Positions 561-7,209 of a DNA stretch of 7,998 nt are shown in pieces. The translations under genes and the position numbers were made by a program. Positions within the stretch are counted from its first letter, which is position 1, and every line of letters starts with the position of its first letter. Below the pieces are notes generated by a model. The model was not told the DNA's origin. It searched no databases and worked only from the letters and a program-made list of their open reading frames with translations. The DNA comes from Octopus sinensis. Lineage: Eukaryota. The DNA lies in NCBI RefSeq assembly GCF_006345805.1, contig NW_021828634.1, forward strand, positions 1 through 7,998, given 5' to 3'.

Positions 561-700
561 ATCAGCCGAAATTGCGAGGATGATCCGGTTCTTGACTGAA
601 GATTGAAGGCTGCGAATGTCCCGTCCGTGTTTTTTGTATCATCTTCTAAATGTTTTACGCTCTTGTCCCAGTTTGTATTTTTCTACATATAATATATATA
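561..700 (+). repeat. Left terminal direct repeat of element A
   Basis: atcagccgaaattgcgagg...ctacatataatatatata matches 1401-1527 except for 2 substitutions and a 13-nt segment (611-623) missing from the right copy. Confidence 0.97.
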
Positions 701-786
701 GCAATGCCCGTACACTTTTTGGTCTTGTATGTAAGTACATATTTCTTTAAATTTGGTACGACTCTATAACACTGTCTCTCTCTCCT

Positions 787-928
787 ACATTTCTCTGCCT
801 TTCACACTTTGCACTCTACTTTGACCTGTCTCTCTCTCTCTCTCTTCCCCTCCTCCTTTTCTTGCCTCTGATTCTTTGGTCTCCTCTTCTCCCACTCTCT
901 CACATTTCTCTGTCTTTCTCACTTTGCA
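787..928 (+). repeat. Internal duplication in the element A polypyrimidine body (787-813 vs 902-928)
   Basis: acatttctctgcctttcacactttgca vs acatttctctgtctttctcactttgca, 25/27 identical, 115 bp offset. Confidence 0.85.
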
Positions 929-1400
929 TCTCACTGATTCTGTCGCCAAGCCAATCCTTGGCACGCTCTCTTTCTTCTCCCCTCTTTAATTCCTTCTTTC
1001 TCTCTCTTCTCTCCCCTTTGGTGCCTTTGTCCCTCTCTTTCTCTCTCTCTTTGATTCCTTTGCCCCCTTTAGTCTCTCTCTTCTCCTCTCACGTGACCGC
1101 TGGTCAACCAGCCTTTCAGCTTCTGACCACCGCCACGAGAACATCGTTTTCTTCGTCTGCCGAAAAAGGCATTTTTTTGCCAAATACGCCAGCTAAGCAA
1201 AGTTGAACTGTCTAAAGTCGTAAGACACCCGCTGTTTTTGTCCTGTTATTACTATTATTGTTTTTTGTATTTATATTCGTGTGGCATCGTCCGTTTTTCT
1301 GTCCTTGTTTCGTATACATTCGATCCTTTTTCCAAGAAATCTAATGCTCGTAGCTTAGTTTTTCTTTGGGGCTGGCTGGATCGGAGTATTCTCAAGATTA

Positions 1401-1510
1401 ATCAGCCGAAATTGCGAGGATGATCCGGTTCTTGACTGAAGATTGAAGGCTCCGTGTTTTTTGTATCGTCTTCTAAATGTTTTACGTTCTTGTCCCAGTT
1501 TGTATTTTTC

Positions 1511-1527
<17 letters not shown>
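1401..1527 (+). repeat. Right terminal direct repeat of element A
   Basis: Copy of 561-700 starting 840 bp downstream, followed by pure (TA)n. Confidence 0.97.
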
Positions 1528-1561
<34 letters not shown>

Positions 1562-1577
1562 CATCATCATCATCATC

Positions 1578-1617
<40 letters not shown>
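1520..1617. repeat. Compound microsatellite (TA)n-(TCA)6-(TAA)13
   Basis: Direct reading: TCA at 1561-1578, TAA at 1579-1617. Confidence 0.97.
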
Positions 1618-1619
<2 letters not shown>

Positions 1620-1799
1620 TGGGAGAATATCATTCCAAACTTACAGGGAAAATTCAATTTAGAAATACTTAAATCGCCTGTTGAACATCACTTCAGAAGA
1701 TGTTGAAACTGGATTTTAAAATGTTTCCATCCAATAAAACAATGGAAAAGTAAAAAGAAAAAACGTGTTTGTAAAAGTTATTTTTGTTTAATATCATTC

Positions 1800-3560: not shown

Positions 3561-3622
3561 CGGTTTTAATCTTTGTTCGATCATAATTTCGATAATTGGC
3601 CTCGTGTTGATTTTCTGTAGAA

Positions 3623-3933
3623 TGCCTTCCAGCCACATGGTTCTGGGTTCAGTCCCACTGCGTGACACCTTAGGCAAGTGTCTTCTTCTATAGCCTTGGG
3701 CCGACCAAAGCCTTGCGAGTAGATTTGGTAGACGGAAACTGAAAGAAGCTCGTCGTATATACATATATGTGTGTCAGTATTTGTTCCCCCATCACCGCCT
3801 GACAACCATTATTGGTGTATTTGCGTCCCCGTAACAAAGTCATGGGGTCGATTTCTTCAGCTAAAACCCTTCAAGGCGGCGCTCCAGCATGGCCTTGGTA
3901 AAATGGCTGAAACAACTAAAAGAATAAAAGAAT
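3623..3933 (+). mobile_element. tRNA-derived SINE (CORE-like central domain), 5'-truncated
   Basis: Pol III B-box-like gggttcagtccc at 3645-3656, then CORE-like accttaggcaagtgtctt, an internal TA/TG spacer and a tandem (taaaagaa)2 tail at 3917-3932. The tail is shared with 2628-2683. No A box seen. Resembles a common octopus SINE (from memory). Confidence 0.85.
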
Positions 3934-4195: not shown

Positions 4196-4413
4196 CAGAA
4201 ACGTTAGCACACCGGGCGAAATGCTTAACGGTATTTTGTCTGCCGCTACGTTCTGAGTTCAAATTCCGCCGAGGTCGACTTTGCCTTTCATACTTTCGGG
4301 GTCGATTAAATATGTACCAGTTACGCCCTGGGGTCGATATAATCGACTTTATACCTATGTCTGTCCTTGTTTGTCCACTCTATGTTTAGCCCCTTGTGGG
4401 CAATAAAGAAATA
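4196..4413 (+). mobile_element. Second tRNA-derived SINE family, nearly full length
   Basis: B box gagttcaaattcc at 4255-4267. Central ggtcgactttgcctttcatactttcggggtcgat...gtaccag block resembles conserved metazoan SINE domains. Hairpin gtcgatataatcgac at 4333-4347. The 3' aataaagaaat is repeated at 4402-4412 and 4419-4429. Confidence 0.88.
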
Positions 4414-5729: not shown

Positions 5730-6079
5730 AACATATACATGTACAGATACACTTATATACATACATACACATATATACAAACATATATATATATATATAT
5801 AAATATTATATATATATATATATATGATTTTATATATTATACACATATGCACATATATTCATATAGAAAGATATAGGTGTTATAATTAAGTCAATAAAAG
5901 AATACGAATAGTTCTTCTCATTCAATCTATAAATATGTATTTATATATATTTACGTACATACATGTATATGTGTGCGTGTGTGTGTGCATACATACACAT
6001 GTACGCACACACGCACTCATACATATACATATATATATATATATGTATGTATATATATATGTATATGTATATATATATG

Positions 6080-6113
<34 letters not shown>

Positions 6114-6135
6114 AAATATATATATATATGTATAA
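5730..6135. repeat. Degenerate (TA)n/(CA)n low-complexity field, with a short unique spacer at ~5865-5930
   Basis: Direct reading. Confidence 0.9.
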
Positions 6136-6138
6136 TTA

Positions 6139-6333
6139 TAATGCTTACAGCTTAGTTTTTTTTCTTGGGGCTGGCCGAGTTGGAGCAATATCAGAATTGA
6201 ACAGCCGAAATTTGCTTATGATGATTCGGTGTCTGACGAAGAATTGAAGGCTTCGAATGATTTGTCTGGTTCCGTGTTCGTCCCTTCCTGTATTTCACGT
6301 TCATTATATATAAAAACATTCATTCTTATATAT
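6139..6333 (+). repeat. Left terminal direct repeat of element B (195 nt)
   Basis: Matches 6845-7041 with 7 small indels and no substitutions. Confidence 0.97.
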
Positions 6334-6844
6334 TGCGGCGTTACGTGCACCCCCCCGTTGTTTGTCCAATTTGAAACCCTGCACGACTTCTATACACACT
6401 GTCTTTCCTACCCGCCATTGCTTCTCACCAAACTTTTGGCGCCCTCCGATTCTTCCCCTCTCTTCCTCCCATCCTTCTCCCTCTTCCTCCCATCCTCCTT
6501 AATCCCTTCTTTCTCTTTTCTCTTGGTCACTGATTCTGTCCCCTGCCTTCCACCCTTTGATTCCCTCTCTCTCTGTCTCTCTTTCTCTCTCTCTCCTGCA
6601 ACCTGCTGCTTCTTAAACCATTCTGTTGGCCATCGTATCTCGACCAACATGTGTCCCCGCTAACCGAAACGGTATTATTTCTACGCCAGCTATGTTGTTG
6701 TTGTTTTTGTCTCATTTGGTCTAAAGTCGTATGACACCACCGTTATATATATTTTGTTTATTCATTACTGTTTTCAATTACGTTTTCGTCTCTTGTATTT
6801 ACATCCGTCTTGTGCGTTCACATTCCTGTCTTCTACAAGAAATC

Positions 6845-7041
6845 TAATGCTTACGCTTAGTTTTTTTTTTCTTGGGGCTGGCCGAGTTGGAGCAAATATC
6901 AGAATTGAACAGCCGAAATTTGCTATGATGATTCGGTGTCTGACTGAAGATTGAAGGCTTCGAATGATTTGTCTGTGTTCCGTGTTCGTCCCTTCCTGTA
7001 TTTCACGTTCATTATATATAAAAACATTCATTCTTATATAT
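6845..7041 (+). repeat. Right terminal direct repeat of element B (197 nt)
   Basis: Copy of 6139-6333, starting 706 bp downstream. Confidence 0.97.
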
Positions 7042-7044
7042 ATG

Positions 7045-7076
<32 letters not shown>

Positions 7077-7087
7077 ATTATATATAT

Positions 7088-7166
<79 letters not shown>

Positions 7167-7176
7167 ATATATATTA

Positions 7177-7209
<33 letters not shown>

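What the first reader, a model, noticed from the sequence alone, without database searches (positions are those of the whole stretch)
701..1460. Chain of short colinear motifs conserved between A and B, suggesting a structured RNA or cis-acting signals
Seen (A vs B): acgactctataacactgtct 758-777 vs acgacttctatacacactgtct 6383-6404; tcactgattctgtc 931-944 = 6527-6540; tacgccagcta 1185-1195 = 6682-6692; gtctaaagtcgta(a/t)gacacc 1210-1229 vs 6719-6738; caagaaatctaatgct 1333-1348 = 6836-6851; gcttag-Tn-ggggctggc; cagccgaaatt; tgactgaagattgaaggct 1433-1451 = 6941-6959. Spacers between these blocks are barely alignable. Inference: island-like conservation without coding signal implies selection on RNA structure, promoter elements or RT-recognition sites rather than neutral decay.
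Basis: partly seen in the sequence, partly recalled or inferred. Interest (0 to 1): 0.75.

Follow-up and report, generated by a model that had tools for sequence, protein, structure and literature searches.

The report
Two subfamilies of Penelope-type repeat
The motif chain is real: A and B are copies of two diverged subfamilies of an abundant non-coding mobile repeat that sits in TA microsatellites as 5'-truncated partial tandems. It is likely copied by a Penelope-like reverse transcriptase, and the conserved blocks are likely its cis-acting signals rather than a folded RNA.

Summary
Observation confirmed. All 12 quoted strings sit at the stated coordinates. The colinear chain of exact blocks is 10 blocks, 134 nt; 500 shuffles gave a mean of 12.5 and a maximum of 58.

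A (561-1530) and B (6139-7041) are two subfamilies of a dispersed non-coding repeat. One 19-mer occurs 3054 times in the 2.72-Gb genome. Copies share a fixed 3' end and have randomly truncated 5' ends. Copies that reach the unit start run on into another partial unit (1.1 to over 5 units). (TA)n lies on both sides, with occasional head-to-head inverted pairs and 30-50-nt tails. This is the footprint described for Penelope-like elements (PLEs) and their non-autonomous derivatives.

Between family majorities, conservation is clustered: 81% in a ~135-nt module (1330-1465) against ~58% elsewhere. Subfamily-defining variants are depleted in the islands. Private mutations are not depleted in family A. 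This suggests constraint on the propagating lineages.

A structured RNA is not supported. Rfam gave no match, fold z-scores are about 0, and 1 of 28 predicted pairs is compensatory. There is no coding signal.

The genome holds intact RT+GIY-YIG PLEs that also sit in (TA)n. No sampled autonomous element shares sequence with A or B, so the partner is inferred. This is an ordinary but neat transposon-biology result.

The parts
561..700 (+). Copy A: upstream partial unit (pseudo-LTR), that is the last ~140 nt of a unit, 5'-truncated inside the conserved module
   Evidence: Matches 1401-1527 at 125 of 127 aligned columns. The unit HMM matches positions 704-843 of 845. It is preceded by a TA/CA microsatellite.
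701..1530 (+). Copy A: one full unit (830 nt)
   Evidence: Unit HMM positions 2-845 match at 719-1529. The own-genome search gave 49 matches at about 84-94% identity, with 4278 first-look candidates of which 40 were scored.
775..1090 (+). CT-rich low-complexity core of copy A, with an internal duplication (778-813 resembles 895-928)
   Evidence: GC skew is -0.40 to -0.49. Repeat family D17 is 85% identical. This is the least conserved and least alignable part between A and B (58% over 701-1180).
1185..1229 (+). Two internal conserved islands (TACGCCAGCTA; GTCTAAAGTCGTAAGACACC)
   Evidence: Exact or near-exact in B at 6682-6692 and 6719-6738. Family-majority identity is 72% over 1181-1232.
1330..1465 (+). 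Conserved ~135-nt module: CAAGAAATCTAATGC, GCTTAG-Tn, TTGGGGCTGGC, CAGCCGAAATT, GATGATYCGG, TGACTGAAGATTGAAGGCT(TCGAATG). It lies in the part that is duplicated as the pseudo-LTR. Predicted cis-acting region.
   Evidence: 119 of 147 aligned columns (81%) are identical between the A and B majorities. 43 invariant and 78 nearly invariant columns of 176 in 44 sequences. The 19-mer occurs 3054 times in the genome and the reversed control 0 times. This copy lacks 13 nt (GCGAATGTCCCGT) that 561-700 carries; in the 44-sequence alignment it is the only row gapped at that stretch.
1466..1530 (+). T-rich 3' terminal segment ending in ...TTTTTCTACATATAATATATA, the fixed 3' end of family A
   Evidence: The 3' end is constant: HMM end at position 838 or later in 22 of 25 unbiased copies. 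Junction sequences are shown. It is only 57% identical to B.
1520..1620 (.). 3' flanking microsatellites (TA)n, (ATC)n, (ATA)n: the presumed target site
   Evidence: (TA)4 or longer follows the 3' end in 82 of 113 arrays, against 6% of background windows.
6139..6333 (+). Copy B: upstream partial unit (pseudo-LTR), the last ~195 nt of a unit
   Evidence: Matches 6845-7041 at 192 of 192 aligned columns with 7 small gaps. Unit HMM positions 643-845. Preceded by (TA)n.
6334..7041 (+). Copy B: one full unit (708 nt)
   Evidence: Unit HMM positions 2-844. The own-genome search gave 73 matches at 90-97% identity, including runs of overlapping matches spanning about 7.8 kb on C6 and 6.5 kb on C14, roughly 11 and 9 units by my arithmetic.
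6682..6738 (+). Copy B counterparts of the two internal islands
6833..6992 (+). Copy B counterpart of the conserved module
7035..7200 (.). (TA)n and (TG)n microsatellite flanking copy B on the 3' side

Best explanation
A (561-1530) and B (6139-7041) are copies of two subfamilies of a non-coding repeat present in thousands of copies, with a fixed 3' end, random 5' truncation, partial-tandem ends and (TA)n flanks; it is likely a non-autonomous retroelement mobilised in trans by the reverse transcriptase and GIY-YIG endonuclease of a Penelope-like element (PLE). Shown: the anatomy and its distribution over more than 100 copies; the absence of coding capacity and of any Rfam family; and the clustered conservation between subfamilies. 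Inferred mechanism: a transcript spanning more than one unit, made from a partial-tandem or array copy, ends in a short UAUAU tract. A PLE endonuclease would nick a (TA)n microsatellite, the nicked TA strand would anneal to the UA tract and prime reverse transcription. Copying would stop at a random point (5' truncation) or run through the unit boundary into the next unit, regenerating the pseudo-LTR. The conserved ~135-nt module lies 65-200 nt from the 3' end and is duplicated in the pseudo-LTR. It is predicted to hold the signals the lineage cannot lose: RT binding and/or a promoter that drives the downstream unit, as in Penelope and Chlamys. The CT-rich core and T-rich spacers would be free to drift and slip. 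The islands are therefore best read as primary-sequence cis-signals of a parasite of a retrotransposon, not as a folded RNA.
For: (1) Copy number and dispersal. The 19-mer TGACTGAAGATTGAAGGCT occurs 1492+1562 times; the reversed control occurs 0 times.
(2) Direction. In an unbiased sample of 25 distinct elements (30 loci), 22 of 25 end at HMM position 838-845 of 845, while 5' ends range from 2 to 736. 17 of 25 are shorter than 0.7 unit.
(3) No true 5' end. Of the 8 sampled copies of 0.9 unit or more, 5 run on into an upstream partial unit by HMM (1.16-2.15 units) and 2 more do so by eye. In the A-query loci 21 of 28 distinct main arrays (L013 and L015 are the same place) are 1.07-2.35 units. 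B forms runs of about 11 and 9 units.
(4) Target. (TA)4 or longer lies within 20 nt upstream in 49 of 113 arrays and at the 3' end in 82 of 113, against 155 of 2569 (6%) background windows.
(5) PLE-type oddities. Head-to-head pairs of 5'-truncated copies, each with its own 3' end, occur in L042 and L144 (2 of 118 loci) and at C4:108949120-108950049. There is one tail-to-tail pair (L027). A 'tail' of about 32 and about 50 nt that continues into the next unit follows 2 of 105 terminal 3' ends.
(6) Published PLE features (passages read; PMC8557442): high 5'-truncation, partial tandems forming pLTRs, an adjacent inverted 5'-truncated copy, a 30-40-bp tail, and (TA)n as preferred target of Naiad and Hydra. 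Naiad and Chlamys lack canonical hammerheads. Non-autonomous Chlamys elements make pLTRs and head-to-tail multicopy insertions.
(7) Candidate helpers exist. There are 5029 GIY-YIG first-look candidates, 149 matches of 150 scored, several with open frames of 780-883 aa. L151 holds an element of about 4.1 kb with a 765-aa ORF carrying RVT_1 plus a C-terminal GIY-YIG domain. It is flanked by (TA)n and ends in TTTTTTACAAATATATA. 6 of 15 inspected copies carry a ~31-nt tail.
(8) Constraint. Clustered A-B identity and depletion of shared, but in family A not of private, variants in the islands.
(9) No ORF is conserved and there is no Pfam match.
Against: No autonomous partner was found. A and B share no significant sequence with any of the following:
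- 30 GIY-YIG loci. blastn gave only 21-50-nt hits at E 0.006. nhmmer with the module HMM gave a best E of 4.9, and 0 of 8 conserved blocks are present.
- The 3' UTR of the full PLE in L151. Local alignment scores lie within the shuffle range; the terminal TTTTT-TACA-(TA)n match scores 26 against 20.8 +/- 2.5, reached by 15 of 300 shuffles.
- 30 RVT_1 loci.
Non-autonomous elements usually share the 3' end of their helper. Only 60 of tens of thousands of RT or EN candidate loci were sampled. The most PLE-specific marks are rare here: inverted pairs in 3 of 118 loci and tails at 2 of 105 ends, although the literature calls them frequent. Canonical PLE pLTRs carry hammerheads and none is found here. 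(TA)n is abundant in this genome, and 5' junctions were placed by HMM, so upstream TA counts are approximate. In family B, private substitutions are also somewhat lower in the islands (0.0031 vs 0.0055 per base), so a mutational or alignment contribution is not excluded. No transcript evidence was obtained.
Confidence: 0.6

Rival explanations
1. A LINE-dependent, SINE-like non-autonomous retroposon. A microsatellite-targeting non-LTR retrotransposon, rather than a PLE, would copy the RNA by target-primed reverse transcription. The multi-unit copies would come from read-through transcripts of tandem master loci.
For: A fixed 3' end, heavy 5' truncation and microsatellite flanks fit LINE-type TPRT as well. 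The genome has very many RT loci (59985 RVT_1 first-look candidates). Some copies are followed by (TAA)n or (ATC)n rather than (TA)n (window 1558-1620; L005, L018, L022).
Against: Systematic partial tandems with no defined 5' end. Head-to-head pairs in which both arms keep their own 3' end; by general knowledge, twin priming of LINEs gives an inverted internal segment without a 3' end. Tails that continue into the next unit. These are marks described for PLEs. No similarity to 30 sampled RVT_1 loci, though that sample is tiny and probably dominated by one family.
Confidence: 0.15
2. A retrozyme-like element that moves through a circular RNA. Unit-length RNA would be excised and circularised by an unrecognised self-cleaving motif or by back-splicing, and rolling-circle reverse transcription would yield the 0.1 to over 5-unit, circularly permuted copies.
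For: Copies behave as if circularly permuted, with any 5' start, one 3' end and multimers. Animal non-LTR retrozymes are tandem, non-coding and attributed to PLEs. The most conserved island contains CUGAAGA and GAAA boxes, which resemble the hammerhead core as I recall it. The internal unit junction has a short constant TA tract.
Against: No hammerhead or any other ribozyme family is found at E<=10 on either copy. By hand the boxes are in the wrong order and spacing and lack helices. The units are 708-830 nt, against 150-450 bp for retrozymes. The whole-unit RNA is not unusually self-paired (z -0.10 and -0.20), unlike retrozyme circRNAs. A tandem DNA master explains the multimers equally well.
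Confidence: 0.08
3. A non-autonomous Helitron-type rolling-circle DNA transposon, which inserts at A|T and so favours (TA)n and can form tandem arrays.
For: (TA)n flanks and tandem arrays.
Against: Most copies are short 3' fragments with random 5' ends: 17 of 25 are under 0.7 unit. No 5' TC or 3' CTRR termini and no GC-rich subterminal hairpin are seen in the ends displayed. Termini were read by eye, not modelled.
Confidence: 0.05
4. A dispersed satellite or macrosatellite spread by recombination or extrachromosomal circles, with the islands being regions of lower mutability.
For: Runs of about 9-11 units exist. The spacers are slippage-prone low-complexity sequence. In family B private substitutions are lower in the islands.
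Against: Thousands of dispersed loci share one fixed end and one polarity. Circle reintegration would give random breakpoints at both ends. In family A private substitution rates are equal inside and outside the islands.
Confidence: 0.05
5. A family of host structured non-coding RNA genes.
For: Conserved non-coding blocks. One helix (alignment columns 63-66 with 81-84) stays paired through three A-to-B changes.
Against: No Rfam family. Fold z-scores are about 0. The minimum-energy structures of A and B differ. Covariation is no better than shuffles: 1 pair against a mean of 1.5. Both changes of the one compensatory pair are CpG transitions. The copy-number and truncation pattern is that of a transposon.
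Confidence: 0.03

Closest known systems
Non-autonomous Penelope-like elements of the Naiad/Chlamys type, e.g. MRC1 and other non-autonomous Chlamys families (Craig et al. 2021, PMC8557442; passages read)
   Same: Non-coding; pseudo-LTRs from partial tandem insertion; multicopy head-to-tail insertions; frequent 5' truncation; microsatellite targets; no canonical hammerhead.
   Different: [quoted passage not shown] Here the host is an animal genome, the target is (TA)n, and no sampled autonomous element shares the 3' end.
Autonomous (TA)n-targeting PLEs: Naiad (N-terminal EN) and Hydra (C-terminal EN) in Craig et al. 2021, and the RT+C-terminal GIY-YIG family found in this genome (L151, L061-L090)
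   Same: (TA)n insertion, 5' truncation, tails, inverted adjacent copies, and a T-rich end running into (TA)n.
   Different: Those are 3.4-4.4-kb coding elements. A and B are 0.7-0.83-kb non-coding units with no detectable sequence homology to them.
Animal non-LTR retrozymes (Cervera & de la Pena 2020, PMC7229834, passages; Li et al. 2026 bioRxiv 10.64898/2026.07.22.740005, abstract and introduction)
   Same: Tandem, non-coding, AT-rich dispersed repeats thought to be non-autonomous derivatives of PLE pseudo-LTRs.
   Different: Retrozymes are defined by a type I hammerhead in each 150-450-bp unit and give highly self-paired circRNAs. Here there is no hammerhead, the units are 708-830 nt, and there is no excess folding.
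TRIMs / LTR retrozymes (miniature LTR retrotransposons)
   Same: Short direct terminal repeats flanking a non-coding core of about 700 bp.
   Different: The left boundary of the 5' repeat differs from copy to copy. No TG...CA ends, PBS or PPT were seen in the displayed sequence, and no fixed-length TSD is definable. Arrays exceed 2 units.

Membership tests
PLE-type (Penelope-like) non-autonomous retroelement | Frequent 5' truncation with a constant 3' end | tested here: met
   22 of 25 unbiased copies end at HMM position 838-845, 5' ends span 2-736, and 17 of 25 are under 0.7 unit.
PLE-type (Penelope-like) non-autonomous retroelement | Partial tandem insertion forming pseudo-LTRs, and head-to-tail multimers | tested here: met
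   Window copies are 1.17 and 1.28 units. 21 of 28 distinct main arrays in the A-query loci are 1.07-2.35 units. B runs reach about 9-11 units.
PLE-type (Penelope-like) non-autonomous retroelement | An inverted 5'-truncated copy abutting the 5' end, and 30-40-bp 'tail' extensions | tested here: met
   Present but rare. Head-to-head pairs occur in L042 and L144 (2 of 118 loci) and at C4:108949120-108950049, and one tail-to-tail pair in L027. Tails of about 32 and about 50 nt follow 2 of 105 3' ends.
PLE-type (Penelope-like) non-autonomous retroelement | Microsatellite, (TA)n, target preference | tested here: met
   49 of 113 upstream and 82 of 113 downstream, against 6% background.
PLE-type (Penelope-like) non-autonomous retroelement | Sequence similarity, usually at the 3' end, to an autonomous PLE of the same genome | tested here: not met
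   None in 30 GIY-YIG loci, the L151 3' UTR or 30 RVT_1 loci. The sample is small relative to 5029 and 59985 candidates, so absence is not shown.
PLE-type (Penelope-like) non-autonomous retroelement | Mobilisation by a PLE RT/GIY-YIG endonuclease | not testable with these tools
   Needs a retrotransposition assay. Intact candidate ORFs exist.
Animal non-LTR retrozyme | A type I hammerhead ribozyme in each tandem unit | tested here: not met
   No hammerhead at E<=1 on the whole window or at E<=10 on 540-1540 and 6120-7060.
Animal non-LTR retrozyme | Small (about 150-450 nt) unit giving a highly self-paired circular RNA | tested here: not met
   Units are 708 and 830 nt, with fold z -0.10 and -0.20. 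Circularity itself was not testable.
LTR retrotransposon / TRIM | LTRs with fixed boundaries (TG...CA), PBS, PPT and a 4-6-bp TSD | tested here: not met
   The 5' repeat boundary varies between copies. No such motifs were seen in the displayed ends. Read by eye only.
Helitron | 5' TC and 3' CTRR termini with a subterminal hairpin; both ends conserved | tested here: not met
   Ends shown lack them, and 5' ends are random. Read by eye only.
Any Rfam RNA family / structured RNA | A covariance-model match, excess fold stability, or covariation | tested here: not met
   (no match in A or B). (z from -0.03 to -0.20). (1 of 28 pairs compensatory; 472 of 500 shuffles as high).

The most novel reading that the evidence does not exclude
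A hammerhead-less 'giant retrozyme': a 0.7-0.8-kb non-coding parasite of Penelope-like elements that propagates through a circular or multimeric RNA. Its invariant module (CAGCCGAAAUU...GAUGAUYCGG...UGACUGAAGAUUGAAGGCU, with CUGAAGA and GAAA boxes) would be an undescribed self-processing or RT-recruiting RNA motif rather than a promoter.
Probability: 0.08. Interest if true: 0.7.

Novelty: new member of a known kind. Interest (0 to 1): 0.33.

Why it matters
It turns an apparent conserved non-coding RNA into an annotated mobile-element family of at least about 2000 copies (my estimate from the 3054 occurrences of the 19-mer). Repeat libraries would probably file it as 'unknown', 'LTR' or 'satellite'.

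It also gives a natural experiment on what a PLE-type parasite must keep. A ~135-nt module and two short islands survive while the rest of the unit turns over. PLE transposition (pseudo-LTR formation, tails, microsatellite targeting) is mechanistically poorly understood. A small, abundant, hammerhead-free non-autonomous element with defined conserved blocks would be a handy substrate for dissecting RT recognition and promoter function.

For genome annotation, it warns that island-like conservation between two nearby copies is expected for transposon subfamilies and is not evidence of a host RNA gene.

Tried and rejected
- Rfam on the window at E<=1 gave 109 matches. None lies inside the A or B units; one (mir-297, 504-560) overlaps only the TA/CA flank. 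All scored far below gathering and nearly all are microRNA-type matches lying in TA/CA-rich microsatellite DNA. Laxer scans of A and B gave only junk below 20 bits.
- ARAGORN found no tRNA.
- By hand I tried to fold the CUGAAGA and GAAA boxes into type I, II or III hammerheads. The helices do not form, so I dropped this.
- By eye, the module's GATGATCCGGTTCTTGACTGAAG resembled the repeated TGATGACGTCCCGTTCTGCTTGACTAA motif of the PLE 3' UTR in L151. Local alignment against shuffles did not pick it out, so I rejected it as evidence.
- A search for the helper found nothing in 30 GIY-YIG loci, 2 full PLE loci and 30 RVT_1 loci. PLE ORF fragments lie in the flanks of 4 of 118 A/B/C loci; by my own rough estimate this is about what shared (TA)n targeting could give.
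- Dating by divergence of the two repeats within a copy failed. Within-copy identity (median 96.6% A/C, 99.5% B) is no higher than between copies for the same segment (97.1%, 100%).
- Expression: no RNA holder was listed. 20 runs of 12 studies hold 23-37% of B's sampled words, all stored as contigs, with kind only guessed. Laying 4 of them gave fragmentary repeat contigs and tandem junctions (7030 to 6331), but no information on transcripts.
- ORFs: stop-free frames of 151 and 173 aa are CT-rich low complexity, not similar between A and B (best E 30), and have no Pfam match.
- Earlier-findings look-ups for this genome and for the module sequence returned nothing.
Full report
OBSERVATION. The window (G000:C5105:1-7998, in a 2.72-Gb genome of 13516 contigs) is rich in TA, CA and TG microsatellites.

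The best colinear chain of exact matches of 10 nt or more between A 701-1460 and B 6334-6970 has 10 blocks totalling 134 nt. 500 dinucleotide-preserving shuffles of B gave a chain total of mean 12.5, maximum 58. A global alignment of one unit each gives only 54% identity, 369 of 684 aligned pairs. The 'islands in barely alignable spacers' description is therefore correct.

- A: 561-700 matches 1401-1527, with 125 of 127 aligned columns identical, one 13-nt gap and a period of 840.
- B: 6139-6333 matches 6845-7041, with 192 of 192 aligned columns identical, 7 small gaps and a period of about 706.
The objects are thus A = 561-1530 (1.17 units) and B = 6139-7041 (1.28 units). Both are on the + strand and both are bounded by microsatellite.

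WHAT IT IS: ANATOMY ACROSS THE GENOME.
- A as query gave 4278 first-look candidates; 40 were scored, giving 49 matches at about 84-94% identity.
- B as query gave 1428 candidates and 73 matches at 90-97%. These include runs of overlapping matches spanning C6:77463615-77471397 and C14:38615410-38621903. By my arithmetic these are about 11 and 9 units.
- The invariant 19-mer TGACTGAAGATTGAAGGCT occurs 1492+1562 times, and the reversed control occurs 0 times.

The first 30 places of that pattern search form an unbiased sample and collapse to 25 distinct elements:
- 22 of 25 end at position 838-845 of an 845-position unit profile. The exceptions end at 832, 825 and 817.
- Their 5' ends lie anywhere from position 2 to 736.
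- 17 of 25 are shorter than 0.7 unit.
- Of the 8 that reach 0.9 unit or more, 5 run on into an upstream partial unit by HMM (1.16-2.15 units), and 2 more show upstream-unit remnants by eye (L116, L117).

So there is no true 5' end. Length is continuous across the unit boundary and one polarity is fixed. The same holds in the query-biased loci. A third, intermediate A-like subfamily (L117 type, with GATTAGAGGCT in place of GATTGAAGGCT) also exists.

Flanks. (TA)4 or longer lies within 20 nt upstream of the HMM-defined 5' end in 49 of 113 arrays and at or after the 3' end in 82 of 113. The background is 155 of 2569 windows, or 6%. The junction print-outs show TA runs abutting random truncation points.

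Rare complex structures:
- Head-to-head pairs of two 5'-truncated copies, each with its own 3' end, occur in L042 and L144 and at C4:108949120-108950049. One tail-to-tail pair occurs in L027. That is 3 of the 118 loci examined, plus one place seen only in the hit table.
- At 2 of 105 terminal 3' ends, a 'tail' of about 32 or about 50 nt continues into the start of the next unit and then stops.

Other checks:
- No stop-free frame is conserved between A and B, and none has a Pfam match.
- No tRNA was found.
- No Rfam family matched in either copy.

HOW IT MOST LIKELY WORKS. A fixed 3' end with random 5' truncation is the signature of target-primed reverse transcription (established knowledge). 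The further combination is exactly what Craig et al. 2021 describe for Penelope-like elements (PMC8557442; passages read):
- partial tandems (pseudo-LTRs);
- head-to-tail multimers;
- an adjacent inverted 5'-truncated copy;
- short tails;
- (TA)n targets.
In that paper (TA)n is the preferred target of Naiad and of nearly all Hydra families. Naiad and Chlamys lack canonical hammerheads. [quoted passage not shown]

The genome holds plenty of candidate helpers:
- PF01541 gave 5029 first-look candidates and 149 matches of 150 scored, several in open frames of 780-883 aa.
- This element sits between two (TA)n tracts and ends in ...TTTTTTACAAATATATA.
- 6 of 15 inspected copies carry a ~31-nt tail after that end.

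I therefore infer the following. A/B/C RNAs end in a short UAUAU tract. They would be copied at nicked (TA)n targets by such a PLE enzyme. Templates spanning more than one unit, transcribed from a pLTR or array copy, would regenerate the partial tandem.

This last step, and the identity of the helper, are not shown. A and B have no significant similarity to any of:
- the 30 sampled GIY-YIG loci;
- the L151 3' UTR;
- the 30 RVT_1 loci (which includes a positive control on the window).
Only the terminal T-run-TACA-(TA)n resembles the PLE end, and that is weak: score 26 against shuffles at 20.8 +/- 2.5, with 15 of 300 reaching it.

THE CONSERVED ISLANDS. I aligned 101 full units: 99 from loci plus the 2 from the window. 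Single linkage at 88% identity gave an A/C cluster of 53 units, a B cluster of 45, and 3 singletons that I left out of the profiles.

Majority letters of the two clusters agree at 420 of 653 aligned columns (64%). The agreement is unevenly spread:

| A coordinates | A-B majority identity |
|---|---|
| 701-1180 | 58% |
| 1181-1232 | 72% |
| 1233-1329 | 62% |
| 1330-1465 | 81% |
| 1466-1530 | 57% |

Clustering exceeds permutation:
- The variance of 20-column identity is 0.0195 against a permuted mean of 0.0111; 2 of 5000 permutations reach it.
- There are 9 runs of 10 or more matches against a mean of 2.7; 0 of 5000 reach it.
- The longest run is 26; 9 of 5000 reach it.

Private (single-copy) substitutions mark decay after insertion. 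Variants shared by 3 or more copies mark changes in the propagating lineages:
- Family A: private substitutions are equally frequent in island and other columns (0.0106 vs 0.0112 per base). Columns with a shared variant are halved in islands (17 of 129 against 195 of 698).
- Family B: shared variants are also depleted in islands (2 of 129 against 34 of 586). Here private substitutions are lower too (0.0031 vs 0.0055), on small counts.

I read this as purifying selection on the source copies, acting on 10-26-nt blocks. This favours cis-acting sequence signals. The fine-grained interleaving of blocks and variable spacers inside the module argues against a single recently exchanged segment.

The main module lies in the stretch that becomes the pseudo-LTR. 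In Penelope and Chlamys-3 the pLTR carries the transcription start. The L151 PLE has repeated TGACGTC-type motifs and a TATAAAA in the corresponding 3' region (the motif naming is my own). A promoter and/or RT-binding role is therefore the most economical prediction.

STRUCTURED RNA? I aligned 44 module sequences: 2 from the window, 25 A/C-type and 17 B-type. The 42 locus sequences were chosen from 79 distinct ones.
- RNAalifold gives a weak consensus: -17.3 kcal/mol over 176 columns, with a covariation term of -1.64.
- 1 of 28 pairs changes on both sides. This is a single A-to-B event, and both changes are CpG transitions.
- Counting with controls: 'pairs with a change on both sides' is 1 against a shuffled mean of 1.5, and 472 of 500 shuffles are as high. 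The higher cell-level scores reflect the two-family structure, and the structure was derived from these same sequences.
- Fold energies are ordinary. z is -0.14 (A module), -0.03 (B module), -0.10 (B unit) and -0.20 (A unit).
- The minimum-energy structures of A and B differ.
The RNA-structure reading is not supported. With so little variation in the module, it is not strictly excluded either.

COMPARISON WITH KNOWN SYSTEMS. The family works like a non-autonomous PLE.
- Met: 5' truncation, pLTR and multimers, inverted pairs and tails (rare), and the (TA)n target.
- Not met in my sample: 3'-end similarity to a helper.
- Not testable here: mobilisation.
- It is not an animal non-LTR retrozyme as defined. 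It has no hammerhead, its units are 708-830 nt against 150-450 bp, and it shows no excess self-pairing (PMC7229834 passages; Li et al. 2026 abstract and introduction).
- It is not a TRIM or LTR element, because its 5'-repeat boundaries vary and no PBS, PPT or TG...CA ends are seen by eye.
- It does not show Helitron ends.

Two text searches found no description of this family: 'Penelope-like' + 'pseudo-LTR' + 'microsatellite' (7 papers) and 'octopus' + 'Penelope' + 'transposable elements' + 'tandem' (14 papers). I read passages only from PMC13282606, which lists Penelope families without mentioning non-autonomous ones. Repbase and Dfam could not be consulted, and supplementary files were not read.

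Two earlier AI notes describe similar 'retrozyme-without-ribozyme' repeats in TA microsatellites of other genomes. They are leads only.

VERDICT. Interest is modest.

Noticed in passing
L151:1910-6047 (G000:C6), also L061-L090: An abundant Penelope-like element family with apparently intact ORFs (765 aa from the first ATG; RVT_1 plus a C-terminal GIY-YIG domain). It is inserted in (TA)n and ends in TTTTTTACAAATATATA. 6 of 15 inspected copies carry a ~31-nt tail (cccactcgtatacgagctaatcttattataa). Rfam found no hammerhead at E<=0.1 in L151.
   Followed up: partly
L151:5230-5620: The PLE 3' UTR holds about 5 repeats of a GATTGGTCAA...TGATGACGTC motif (CRE-like, by my own naming) followed by TATAAAA. 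This looks like a promoter placed where a pseudo-LTR would put it upstream of the next copy. A different 3' UTR variant, rich in CAC/CTA trinucleotides, occurs in L068.
   Followed up: no
L077:2484-2543: A short 5'-truncated B-like fragment (GGCTTTGAATGACCCG...TTTCACGTT) directly abuts the 3' end of a PLE copy. Both elements landed in the same TA tract.
   Followed up: no
window 3600-3900 and 4200-4400: Two stretches with tRNA-like B-box motifs (GGTTCTGGGTTCAGTCCCACTG; GTTCTGAGTTCAAATTCCGCCGAGGTCGAC) look like tRNA-derived SINE copies. ARAGORN calls no tRNA there.
   Followed up: no
window 1451-1452 compared with 612-624: The downstream repeat of copy A lacks 13 nt (GCGAATGTCCCGT) that the upstream repeat carries. 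In the 44-sequence module alignment it is the only row gapped at that stretch, so this is a deletion private to this copy.
   Followed up: yes
L107 and L108 (G000:C1:14.92 Mb, about 5 kb apart, opposite strands): Two short A-type copies share the same unusual 5' junction (..tatatacttacattg[t/c]gcttgg|GCTTAG). This suggests an inverted segmental duplication rather than two independent insertions.
   Followed up: no
window, many TA/CA/TG microsatellites (e.g. 5959-6035, 2490-2610): Rfam at a lax threshold reports dozens of mir-297, mir-466 and mir-3149-type matches in the microsatellites. All are far below gathering scores and appear on both strands, so they are low-complexity false positives.
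   Followed up: yes
L035, L037, L043, L046, L057, L058 (B copies): Six B copies have 5' ends within a few bases of each other, near the GTTGTTGTTGTTTTTGTCTCATTTGG stretch (HMM positions about 501-509), with different flanks. This may be a hotspot for 5' end joining, or a transcription start.
   Followed up: partly
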